DNA of 63,850 bases, the filler included, from Atractiella rhizophila (lineage: Eukaryota), in the NCBI GenBank assembly GCA_021432655.1. It is 9 parts of 9 records of this genome, joined end to end, with 100 filler letters (N's around TTAATTAATTAA, not from the genome) between each part and the next. Parts side by side here need not be neighbours in the genome. Positions count along the whole stretch, not along the records: positions 1 to 7,425 come from MU272212.1; 8 more parts are not named here. One strand, 5' to 3'. The notes beneath the pieces are model-generated. The model saw only the letters and a list, made by a program, of their open reading frames with translations, searched no databases and had not been told where the DNA came from. The stretch's first letter is position 1. Each line of letters begins with the position of its first letter. A program made the position numbers and the translations under genes. Positions 4,341 through 5,565 of the stretch are shown here, in pieces.

Positions 4341-5565
4341 TTACCACGAATGTTGCTCAGTAGTGTACTCGCCATCTTTGGGTGCGCGTTCCTTCCACGA
4401 GTGTTGCTCGGTGGTGTAATCCCCATCCTTGGAGCGTTTCCAAGAGTGCTGCTCCGTCGAATATTCGCCATCCTTGGTGGGAGCGCGTTCCTTCCAAGAG
4501 TGCTGCTCAGTGGTGTAATCGCCGTCCTTGGAGCGTTTCCAAGAGTGCTGATCTGTAGTGTAATCGCCATCCTTGGAGCGTTTCCAAGAGTGTTGCTCTG
4601 TGGTGTAGTCGCCGTCCTTGGTGGGTGCGCGTTCCTTCCACGAGTGTTGCTCGGTGGTGTAATCGCCATCCTTGGAGCGTTTCCAGGAGTGCTGCTCGGT
4701 AGAATATTCACCGTCCTTCGTGCGCTTCCACGACTTCTGATCGGTGGAGATGTCGTCTCCCTTTCCGCGTTTCCAGGACTTTTGATCCGTCGAGATGTCA
4801 TCTCCCTTTCCTCGCTTCCAAGAATGCTGGTCAGTCGAGATGTCATCTCCCTTCCCTCGCTTCCAAGAGTGTTGGTCCGTCGAGATGTCATCTCCCTTCC
4901 CTCGCTTCCAAGAGTGTTGGTCCGTCGAGATCTCATCCCCCTTTCCGCGCTTCCAGGAGTGTTGGTCAGTTGAGATGTCATCACCCTTGCCCTGCAAAAG
5001 CCAGTCAACATCACACCGATATGACAATGCGATGATGAGGGAATAGCTTACGCGCTTCCACGAGTGTTGTTCGACGGAGATCTCATCCTTCTTCAAACAC
5101 CCGAAACAAAACATTAAACCCAATGACCCACACATTACGAATACCAAAATGAGAAACACTCACTCCGCGTTTCCAGGACTTCTGAAAGTTCTCAACGTTT
5201 CCAATATCGGCCACCTCCTCCCTCTTCCAAGACTTCTGCAGAATCTCAACCTCTCCGATATTCGCTACCTCTCCATCCCTCTTCCATGACTTCTGCAAGA
5301 TTTCCACGTCCCCAATGTTAGCCGTGTCCCTCTTCCAAGCACCGAGAGCTTGCTTGGCGGGGAACTGTCTTCCCGCAACTGCTCAGCAATAGACAGAAGG
5401 TCATGAAATGAAACTTCGCACGTTGCCGCCAACCTCGGCGCGCTACCCAACCCATCTCAACAATCTTTCCACAGCAAAACTGGAGAGAGTGAGACATACC
5501 TTGGCTGGAGCCGCGAGAGCGAGGGCAGCAAGGGATAGCGAAACGAGCAAGTTCAACTTTGTCAT
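4341..5565 (-). CDS. Secreted Kex2-processed repeat protein (KEP; multi-core peptide precursor) with 19 Trp-terminated modules
   Basis: Manually spliced exons 5565-5500, 5442-5422, 5364-5164, 5090-5052, 4991-4341 (all GT-AG, phase 0). Signal peptide MTKLNLLVSLSLAALALA followed by APAKR, then repeats such as GKGDDISTDQHSW-KR and SKDGDYTTEQHSW-KR. Ends HSW-stop. Confidence 0.92.
4344..4991 (-). repeat. Coding tandem repeat array of about 45-51 bp units (14 units) in the KEP last exon
   Basis: Recurring (c/g/t)ttcca(a/g/c)gagtg(t/c)tg units on the + strand. Six GKGD-type units precede eight KDG(D/E)Y-type units in coding order. Confidence 0.95.

What the first reader, a model, noticed from the sequence alone, without database searches (positions are those of the whole stretch)
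4341..5565. Secreted multi-core peptide precursor (KEP) encoding 19 Trp-terminated peptides
Seen: the ORF track fragments this gene. Manual splicing gives signal peptide-APAKR, then AEVGGNFPAKQALGAW, DTANIGDVEILQKSW, DGEVANIGEVEILQKSW, EEVADIGNVENFQKSW, GKDEISVEQHSW, six GKGD(D/E)ISTDQ(H/K)SW and eight (S/T/P)KDG(D/E)Y(S/T)T(E/D)QHSW. Each module but the last is followed by KR or KER. The last ends W-stop, which is the terminus Kex2 plus Kex1 trimming would leave on the others, so a free C-terminal Trp looks like the selected product. Established: fungal KEPs include alpha-pheromone, Ustilago Rep1, candidalysin and dikaritin RiPP precursors. Seen: the flanking genes are URB2 and CDC40, with no DUF3328 oxidase or other tailoring gene adjacent. 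Inference: a cocktail of linear, acidic QxSW signalling or effector peptides from one stand-alone gene, possibly an undescribed family.
Basis: partly seen in the sequence, partly recalled or inferred. Interest (0 to 1): 0.85.

Follow-up and report, generated by a model that had tools for sequence, protein, structure and literature searches.

The report
Fungal secreted multi-peptide precursor (KEP)
This is a real, spliced and transcribed gene of a root-associated basidiomycete that encodes a secreted precursor made of 19 short acidic, tryptophan-ended peptides separated by protease cut sites. It is a new, apparently orphan example of a class of fungal peptide precursors that is already well described.

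Summary
On the minus strand, 5565..4341, five exons give a 325-residue protein: a signal peptide, a short pro-piece ending in KR, then 19 modules that each end in Trp. All 19 Trp of the protein are module ends. RNA contigs from three runs of three studies carry all four predicted introns exactly; the DNA run has none. They also show an unpredicted 53-nt intron in the 5'UTR. Repeat units differ mostly at synonymous sites (pN/pS 0.07-0.09), so the peptide sequences themselves are under selection. Fifteen junctions are canonical KR; three are K-E-R followed by A-P and are not canonical Kex2 sites, so 16 peptides, not 19, are confidently Trp-ended. The neighbours are Urb2 and Prp17/CDC40, and no DUF3328 or other tailoring gene was found in the window. 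The organism is Atractiella rhizophila or a near relative. No homologue was found in three sequence searches and one feature-based search. [quoted passage not shown] Verdict: a new member of a known kind, of moderate interest.

The parts
4341..5565 (-). Coding region of the KEP gene, ATG at 5565 to stop at 4343-4341; 5 exons, 325 aa
   Evidence: model, in frame. (all four joints in RNA contigs of 3 runs).
5500..5565 (-). Exon 1: start codon, signal peptide (n-region MTK, 15-residue hydrophobic core, A-L-A before the likely cut) and the start of a short pro-piece
   Evidence: Hydropathy windows up to 2.4. No ATG in the observed spliced 5'UTR. SignalP was not available.
5443..5499 (-). Intron 1, 57 nt, GT..AG
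   Evidence: Joint 5442->5500 in X5, X12 and X18.
5422..5442 (-). Exon 2, a 21-nt micro-exon: the Arg that completes the pro-piece KR, plus the start of module 1
   Evidence: Covered by RNA contigs of X5, X12 and X18 (table 8).
5365..5421 (-). Intron 2, 57 nt, GT..AG
   Evidence: Joint 5364->5422 in X5 and X12. In X18 the same joint carries a synonymous TTC>TTT variant.
5164..5364 (-). Exon 3: rest of module 1 and three 15-17-aa modules ending QKSW, each followed by KR
   Evidence: 57-nt tandem repeat 5171-5316.
5091..5163 (-). Intron 3, 73 nt, GT..AG
   Evidence: Joint 5090->5164 in X5, X12 and X18.
5052..5090 (-). Exon 4, 39 nt: module 5 (KDEISVEQHSW plus KR; its first Gly lies at the end of exon 3)
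4992..5051 (-). Intron 4, 60 nt, GT..AG
   Evidence: Joint 4990->5051 (cut +1) in X5, X12 and X18.
4341..4991 (-). Exon 5: six GKGD(D/E)ISTDQ(H/K)SW modules and eight xKDG(D/E)Y(S/T)T(E/D)QHSW modules. Spacers are KR (9) or KER+AP (3). Ends W-stop.
   Evidence: translation P0001. (45-nt and 144-nt periods). (pN/pS 0.07 and 0.09).
5569..5621 (-). Intron in the 5'UTR, 53 nt, GT..AG; its acceptor lies 3 nt before the ATG
   Evidence: X5 and X12 skip 5568->5627 with 4 letters between. These letters match 5622-5625 once the 1-G indel at 5626 (seen in X1) is allowed. X18 has a loose end at 5568 that matches about 5620 onward. Sequence. The exact boundary is my reading of the table.
5622..5680 (-). 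First (non-coding) exon as far as RNA contigs reach; the transcript start is not determined
   Evidence: table 8 (X12 record 8 reaches 5680)
3112..3846 (+). Last long exon of the neighbouring Urb2/Npa2 gene (convergent with the KEP gene)
   Evidence: Pfam PF10441, E 4.9e-31
6215..6829 (-). WD40 exon of the neighbouring Prp17/CDC40 gene
   Evidence: Best named PDB matches are Prp17 of S. pombe, human and yeast (E 5e-32 to 9e-20), matching the C-terminal part of those chains

Best explanation
The locus is a real, transcribed, five-exon gene (six exons counting the 5'UTR exon) of Atractiella rhizophila or a close relative. This is a root-endophytic basidiomycete of the Pucciniomycotina. The gene encodes a Kex2-processed repeat protein (KEP).

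Inferred mechanism:
1. The signal peptide takes the 325-aa, strongly hydrophilic and probably unfolded precursor into the ER.
2. In the late Golgi, Kex2 cuts after the KR of the pro-piece and after the 15 KR spacers.
3. Kex1 trims the two basic residues.
4. About 16 soluble, acidic (net charge 0 to -3), linear 12-17-residue peptides with a free C-terminal Trp are released outside the cell.

The peptides fall into three sequence families that share only the C-terminal Q-(H/K)-S-W. The three K-E-R + A-P junctions are either left uncut, giving double-length peptides, or cut after the single Arg. In the second case Ste13 would remove A-P from the next peptide.

The most likely role is as extracellular signal or interaction peptides, acting on the fungus itself or on the plant or microbial surroundings. 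A structural or toxin-precursor role is less likely.

Shown here: gene structure, splicing, transcription and purifying selection on each unit. Inferred: secretion, cleavage, trimming and function.
For: - Gene model in frame, with four GT..AG introns.
- The same four joints in RNA contigs of 3 of 3 RNA-type runs laid (X12 and X18 are on record as metatranscriptomes; X5 is guessed RNA), from three studies. None in the DNA run X1.
- First ATG of the observed transcript, followed by a classical n/h/c signal sequence.
- Mature part GRAVY -1.78; every Trp (19 of 19) sits at a module end, followed by KR (15), KER (3) or stop (1).
- Units are nearly saturated at synonymous sites but almost identical as peptides. 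Group 2: pS 0.65, pN 0.045. Group 3: pS 0.65, pN 0.057. Across both groups the last five residues are more constrained (pN 0.085) than the first eight (pN 0.25).
- No Pfam tailoring domain in 179 ORFs of 90 aa or more in the window.
- Published KEP criteria are met: signal peptide, 3 or more repeats between KR/RR/KK, repeats 15% or more of the length (PMC6339444, section 24 read).
- Kex2/Kex1/Ste13-processed, Trp-ended KEP peptides have been detected by MS in a basidiomycete and after expression in Pichia. Cuts after single Arg were also seen (PMC9769878, section 6 read).
- Six runs on record as root or soil metatranscriptomes are listed as holders with 0.34-0.44 of the words. Only two of them (X12, X18) were laid.
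Against: - No peptide, secretion or cleavage data exist for this protein, and SignalP could not be run.
- Three of 18 junctions have Glu at P2, a poor Kex2 context (recalled specificity).
- Contigs cannot show strand or expression level (caveats). The transcribed strand is inferred from intron orientation.
- X5 is only guessed to be RNA.
- The presence of Kex2, Kex1 and Ste13 in this organism was not checked, because no genome is held.
- The six KEP knockouts in Coprinopsis cinerea showed no phenotype in axenic culture (PMC9769878, discussion), so a signalling role for KEP peptides in general is still unproven.
- A tailoring gene could lie elsewhere in the genome, or be split into exons shorter than 90 aa and so missed.
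Confidence: 0.75

Rival explanations
1. RiPP precursor. The Tyr- and Trp-containing cores are cyclised or cross-linked by tailoring enzymes encoded elsewhere in the genome, as in a dikaritin- or ustiloxin-like pathway, so the products are not linear peptides.
For: Eight of 19 cores contain D/E-Y, and all end in an aromatic Trp. Ustiloxin and phomopsin cores share an acidic-Tyr motif, EDYXI (PMC6339444, section 10 read). Only the 64-kb window could be searched (no genome held).
Against: No DUF3328, tyrosinase, P450 or methyltransferase hit in 179 ORFs of 90 aa or more in the window. Eleven of 19 cores have no Tyr. Only 6.1% of basidiomycete KEPs have a DUF3328 neighbour (PMC7329392, passage read). 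The immediate neighbours are housekeeping genes.
Confidence: 0.1
2. An intact secreted or wall-associated acidic repeat protein that is not cut into peptides. Here the KR pairs would be structural or charge features, for example for binding cations or the wall matrix.
For: No cleavage data. The composition is highly charged, rich in K, D, S, G, E and T. Purifying selection on the units would also fit a repeat protein.
Against: The strict period of W-KR at every unit end, and the last unit ending W-stop, fit processing better. An unfolded secretory protein with 16 exposed KR sites would be expected to be cut by Golgi Kex2 (inference from established Kex2 biology). Several C. cinerea KEPs expressed in Pichia gave cleaved peptides in the supernatant (PMC9769878, section 6).
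Confidence: 0.1
3. Repellent-like surface peptides. As with Ustilago maydis Rep1, the Kex2 products would stay on the hyphal wall and change surface hydrophobicity or attachment.
For: Rep1 is a KEP without a Ste13 signature whose peptides attach to hyphae (PMC6339444, section 15 read). Fifteen of the 18 junctions here also lack a Ste13 signature.
Against: The peptides here are short (12-17 aa), acidic and very hydrophilic (GRAVY -1.78). That is the opposite of what a surface-coating amphipathic peptide needs (the properties of Rep1 peptides are recalled, not checked here).
Confidence: 0.04

Closest known systems
Basidiomycete alpha-pheromone-like KEPs with Trp-ended cores (Coprinopsis cinerea KEP 490115 and KEP 447393; PMC9769878, sections 6 and 7)
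   Same: Signal peptide, tandem short cores, dibasic spacers and a free C-terminal Trp after Kex2/Kex1 processing; the cores end x-S-W. Two environmental examples found here have the same build: L100 (cores ending PPSW, last one W-stop) and L082 (cores ending APDW).
   Different: Those cores are 7-9 residues, Pro-rich, and preceded by runs of X-Ala/X-Pro Ste13 dipeptides.
KEP class as defined by Le Marquer et al. 2019 (PMC6339444) and Umemura 2020 (PMC7329392)
   Same: Meets every published criterion. Like 2560 of the 7878 catalogued KEPs, it is a 'stand-alone' type with no homologue (PMC7329392, abstract).
   Different: Carries three core families in one precursor; only 2 of 1193 KEPs in PMC6339444 had three motif types (section 24). 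Nineteen modules. The lineage (Atractiella) is not mentioned in the held supplements of either catalogue.
Ascomycete alpha-factor-type pheromone precursors (MFalpha1; Pezizomycotina Ppg1/Ccg-4 type)
   Same: The same Kex2/Kex1 (and Ste13) logic. That many Pezizomycotina pheromones also end in Trp is recalled, not checked here.
   Different: [quoted passage not shown] There is no sequence similarity, and far more and more varied cores.
Ustilago maydis Rep1 repellent precursor
   Same: A basidiomycete KEP without a Ste13 signature.
   Different: Rep1 peptides stay on the hyphae (PMC6339444, section 15). The peptides here are short, acidic and hydrophilic.
Ustiloxin/phomopsin (dikaritin) precursors
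   Same: KR-separated repeated cores, some with an acidic residue before Tyr.
   Different: No DUF3328 gene in the window, and most cores lack Tyr.

Membership tests
KEP (Kex2-processed repeat protein; criteria of PMC6339444, section 24) | N-terminal signal peptide | tested here: met
   By inspection and hydropathy only: MTK, then a 15-residue hydrophobic core (9-residue windows up to 2.4), then A-L-A. SignalP was not available.
KEP (Kex2-processed repeat protein; criteria of PMC6339444, section 24) | No transmembrane segment outside the signal peptide | tested here: met
   The mature part has GRAVY -1.78 and no hydrophobic stretch. TMHMM was not run.
KEP (Kex2-processed repeat protein; criteria of PMC6339444, section 24) | At least three similar fragments between KR/RR/KK sites | tested here: met
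   16 KR sites; three repeat families of 3, 6 (+1) and 8 units
KEP (Kex2-processed repeat protein; criteria of PMC6339444, section 24) | Repeats make up at least 15% of the protein | tested here: met
   The modules and their spacers fill residues 24-325 of 325
KEP (Kex2-processed repeat protein; criteria of PMC6339444, section 24) | Actual cleavage by Kex2 and release of the peptides | not testable with these tools
   Needs peptidomics or a kex2 mutant
Alpha-pheromone-like basidiomycete KEPs (Ste13 signature, Trp-ended cores) | X-Ala/X-Pro dipeptides after the dibasic site at the repeats | tested here: not met
   Only 3 of 18 junctions (those with KER) are followed by A-P. The 15 KR junctions are followed by D, E, G, S or T.
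Alpha-pheromone-like basidiomycete KEPs (Ste13 signature, Trp-ended cores) | Core peptides with C-terminal Trp | tested here: met
   19 of 19 modules end in W
Alpha-pheromone-like basidiomycete KEPs (Ste13 signature, Trp-ended cores) | Detectable sequence similarity to described members | tested here: inconclusive
   No relative found, but with cores this short homology cannot be judged, and the reference sequences were not at hand
Dikaritin/ustiloxin-type RiPP precursors | DUF3328 (UstY) gene in the vicinity (within 15 genes, PMC7329392) | tested here: not met
   0 of 179 ORFs of 90 aa or more in the 64-kb window hit DUF3328. Short exons could be missed.
Dikaritin/ustiloxin-type RiPP precursors | Tyr-containing core in every repeat | tested here: not met
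   Tyr in 8 of 19 modules
Rep1-type repellents | Wall-attached amphipathic peptides | not testable with these tools
   The composition argues against it (GRAVY -1.78). Attachment needs experiment.

The most novel reading that the evidence does not exclude
The gene is the source of an interkingdom signal. In this reading a root endophyte secretes a graded cocktail of Q-x-S-W-ended peptides that host roots (or neighbouring microbes) perceive and that are needed for endophytic colonisation. The eight D/E-Tyr cores might act like plant Asp-Tyr peptide hormones. It would be the first functionally assigned KEP of the Pucciniomycotina and a new ligand family defined by a C-terminal Q-x-S-W.
Probability: 0.1. 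Interest if true: 0.75.

Novelty: new member of a known kind. Interest (0 to 1): 0.35.

Why it matters
KEPs are common in fungal genomes, yet very few have a known function. This one stands out on four counts:
- It is unusually clean: 19 modules in three core families, with strong unit-by-unit purifying selection.
- It appears to be missing from the protein collections searched, which do hold a protein named for this species.
- It comes from a plant-root endophyte lineage that the KEP surveys do not mention.
- Its spliced transcript is assembled in root and soil metatranscriptomes.

That makes it a practical candidate for peptidomics and for testing whether KEP peptides act in plant-fungus communication. 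It does not change what is known about the class.

Tried and rejected
- Whole genome: none is held, so paralogues, Kex2/Kex1/Ste13 and distant tailoring genes could not be sought.
- Homologue searches with exon 5 (P0001, 216 aa):
  - The search for homologous proteins: 0 hits among 233 candidates.
  - The search of protein representatives: 25 hits at E 1e-3 or below. I read 12 of them, the five best-scoring plus seven shorter ones chosen by length, and all were unrelated tandem-repeat proteins without a KEP build. The other 13 were not read.
  - The search for related loci in metagenome contigs: 42 pattern matches, none confirmed.
  - ESM Atlas: best score 0.87, unrelated clusters.
None has a Q[HK]SW array. 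Two (L100, L082) are KEPs of the Pro-rich, Ste13 type. The rest are low-complexity repeats.
- Pfam on the KEP frame: only a sub-threshold T6SS_Vgr hit (19.9 bits against a cut-off of 22.4), which I take as spurious.
- The long ORFs on the plus strand (4266-4973) and in another minus frame (4037-5047) are by-products of the repeat. Splicing supports only the reported frame.
- Motif look-ups (QHSWKR and similar) in the held supplements of PMC6339444 and PMC7329392 gave nothing. This is uninformative: the Umemura table holds accession numbers only, and the Le Marquer table with sequences does not seem to be among the 2 files held.
- A full-text search for four motif strings gave one unrelated paper. 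'Atractiella' together with 'secretome': 0 papers.
- A search with the 669-aa TPR ORF gave no close hit and was a wasted search.
- One X18 contig joins 5164 to repeat sequence near 4737-4766. I read this as a repeat-induced assembly chimera.
- Earlier findings of this scan: nothing on this genome or sequence. The word hits were unrelated prokaryotic or amoebal repeat proteins.

Full report
**Observation**

The region 4341-5565 lies on the minus strand. Stop-to-stop ORFs break the gene into pieces. Joining five exons through four short GT..AG introns of 57, 57, 73 and 60 nt gives an in-frame CDS of 978 nt and a protein of 325 residues. The exons are 5565-5500, 5442-5422, 5364-5164, 5090-5052 and 4991-4341.

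The protein has these parts, in order:
- a classical signal sequence (MTK, a 15-residue hydrophobic core, A-L-A);
- a five-residue pro-piece ending in KR;
- 19 modules that all end in Trp.

The modules are:
- one 16-residue N-terminal module;
- three 15-17-residue modules ending QKSW;
- GKDEISVEQHSW;
- six GKGD(D/E)ISTDQ(H/K)SW;
- eight xKDG(D/E)Y(S/T)T(E/D)QHSW.

Fifteen junctions are KR and three are KER followed by AP. The last module ends W-stop. Every one of the 19 Trp residues is a module end. Tandem Repeats Finder reports the arrays with periods of 45, 57, 99 and 144 nt.

**Is it a real gene?**

The 1.5-kb stretch is held, at least in part, by 20 of the 24 public runs listed, from 17 studies. 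Six of these runs are on record as root or soil metatranscriptomes. I laid four runs on 4900-5750.

- The DNA run X1 covers the stretch without joints.
- X12 (root metatranscriptome), X18 (soil metatranscriptome) and X5 (guessed RNA) come from three studies. Each carries contigs that skip exactly the four predicted introns.
- In X18 the second joint carries a synonymous TTC>TTT change.
- No RNA contig covers the intron interiors.

X5 and X12 also skip about 53 nt just upstream of the ATG. The table gives this as 5568->5627 with four letters between. Those letters match 5622-5625 once a one-G length difference at 5626, also seen in X1, is allowed. The skipped piece, 5621..5569, then begins GT and ends AG on the minus strand. 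The observed spliced 5'UTR has no ATG, so 5565 is the first start codon.

Two limits apply. Contigs cannot give strand or expression level, so the strand follows from intron orientation. Only two of the six metatranscriptome holders were laid.

**Selection**

Within the six GKGD units, pS is 0.65 and pN is 0.045. Within seven of the eight KDG units, pS is 0.65 and pN is 0.057; the last unit lacks one residue and was left out. The ratios are 0.07 and 0.09. The copies are therefore old at the DNA level, yet are kept nearly identical as peptides.

Across both families the last five residues vary less (pN 0.085) than the first eight (pN 0.25). This points to the shared Q-x-S-W end as the constrained part. 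The pairwise counts are not independent, so these are descriptive figures, not a test.

Variants seen in the runs are mostly intronic or synonymous. Two conservative coding changes, E>D and G>D, lie in the variable N-terminal half of their units.

**Context**

- Downstream of the gene's 3' end lies the last exon of Urb2 (PF10441, E 4.9e-31).
- Upstream of its 5' end lies a WD40 exon whose best named PDB matches are Prp17/CDC40.
- Among 179 stop-to-stop ORFs of 90 aa or more over the whole window, none hits DUF3328, tyrosinase, P450 or a methyltransferase. A gene split into short exons could be missed.
- A Prp19 exon at 13964-14926 is 95% identical (206 of 216) to an NCBI protein named for Atractiella rhizophila. 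The next hits, at 37-44% identity, include Pucciniomycotina and Tremellomycetes proteins.

The window therefore comes from that species or a close relative (Atractiellomycetes). The many short introns fit a basidiomycete. Recovery from root and soil metatranscriptomes fits a fungus found in root and rhizosphere surveys; several of the 15 papers that name the species are root or rhizosphere microbiome studies (listing only).

**Relatives**

Exon 5 (P0001) found nothing in the 5.8-billion-protein collection (0 hits among 233 candidates). Among 1.84 billion representatives it found only unrelated repeat proteins: 25 hits, of which I read 12, the five best-scoring plus seven shorter ones. It found nothing in metagenome contigs and nothing meaningful in the ESM Atlas.

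That collection does hold a protein named for A. rhizophila. The KEP is therefore probably not among the deposited gene models, although this is indirect evidence.

None has Q[HK]SW arrays. Two are clearly KEPs of another type:
- L100 has a signal peptide and eight cores ending PPSW, preceded by E-P dipeptides; its last core ends W-stop.
- L082 has cores ending APDW, preceded by D-A-E-A.

**What is known**

Le Marquer et al. defined KEPs and found 1193 in 226 species. Among them is an XSDW repeat motif in Basidiomycota and alpha-pheromone-like KEPs with Ste13 signatures. Only two KEPs had three motif types (PMC6339444, sections 10, 15 and 24 read).

Umemura found 7878 KEPs, of which 2560 were stand-alone types. 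DUF3328 neighbours occur in only 6.1% of basidiomycete KEPs (PMC7329392: abstract, passages, and one part of Table S2 read).

Vogt et al. detected peptides ending ...PSW by MS and reported the following (PMC9769878, sections 6 and 10 and passages of section 7 read):
- many basidiomycete KEPs have cores with a C-terminal tryptophan;
- cuts after single Arg occur;
- Ste13 trimming occurs;
- knockouts of six kep genes gave no axenic phenotype.

Neither catalogue's held supplements mention Atractiella. The motif strings of this gene occur in no relevant paper of the library.

**Mechanism and rivals**

The best explanation is a stand-alone KEP processed by Kex2 and Kex1 into about 16 soluble, acidic, Trp-ended peptides.

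The three K-E-R junctions are the open point, because Glu at P2 is a poor Kex2 context (recalled). If they are cut after the Arg, the A-P that follows is a Ste13 substrate. Removing it would restore the usual T-K-D-G start at two of these junctions and a K-D-G start at the third. However, the upstream peptide would keep K-E after Kex1 trimming.

Three rivals remain:
- a RiPP precursor with distant tailoring genes (0.10);
- an uncut acidic repeat protein (0.10);
- a repellent-like wall peptide (0.04).

Function is inferred only by analogy with other KEPs and from the ecology. Extracellular signalling or interaction is the most likely role.

**Verdict**

- The KEP reading is supported.
- The count of Trp-ended products is reduced to 16 confident ones.
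- The 'undescribed family' claim is reduced to an orphan member of a described class whose Trp-terminus theme is already in print.
- Novelty: new member of a known kind. Interest: 0.35.

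Noticed in passing
window 7426-7525, 14945-15044, 22437-22536, 29905-30004, 34122-34146, 37312-37411, 41726-41825, 49120-49219, 56492-56591: Paired runs of 44 N, 12 bases apart, recur about every 7.4 kb, plus one 25-N run. The regular spacing looks like masking rather than assembly gaps. 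Some genes (for example Prp19 near 14945) are interrupted by them.
   Followed up: no
window 46156-49100: A tandem duplication of about 1.46 kb at 98-100% identity (46469-47650 against 47927-49100) covers part of a GAPDH gene. Gp_dh_N and Gp_dh_C exons lie at 46156-46717, and a second Gp_dh_C exon at 47711-48175. It is either a very recent tandem duplicate or an assembly artefact.
   Followed up: partly
window 50423-55059 (+): A patatin-like phospholipase ORF (50423-51811), an ORF without a Pfam hit (51721-53049) and a 669-aa TPR ORF (53053-55059) lie in a row. This looks like one fungal NLR-type protein with a patatin N-terminus and TPR repeats. Its closest database relatives are only 30-34% identical.
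   Followed up: partly
L100:133-624 (+) and L082:43-441 (-): Two environmental contigs encode KEPs with a signal peptide, Ste13-type dipeptides and Trp-ended Pro/Gly-rich cores (ending PPSW and APDW). L100 ends W-stop, like the gene studied here.
   Followed up: partly
window 4954-5097: The DNA run X1 holds two contigs over this stretch, at depths 163 and 89. They differ at six places: four in intron 4, one synonymous and one G>D in module 6. This suggests two haplotypes (a dikaryon or heterozygote) or two strains in that run.
   Followed up: partly
window 62464-63186 (-): An ORF with an RNase H domain (PF00075, E 2.8e-6), possibly a retroelement remnant near the window end.
   Followed up: no
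window 13964-16135, 17222-17954, 30364-32268, 34743-36268, 38943-39590, 57783-58460: Other genes recognised by Pfam: Prp19 WD40 (+), kinesin motor (-), GH79 C-terminal domain (-), GNAT acetyltransferase (+), RRG7 (-), SRF-type MADS-box factor (+), amino-acid permease (+), cullin (+) and protein kinase (+). Two splicing factors, Prp17 and Prp19, lie within 8 kb of each other.
   Followed up: no
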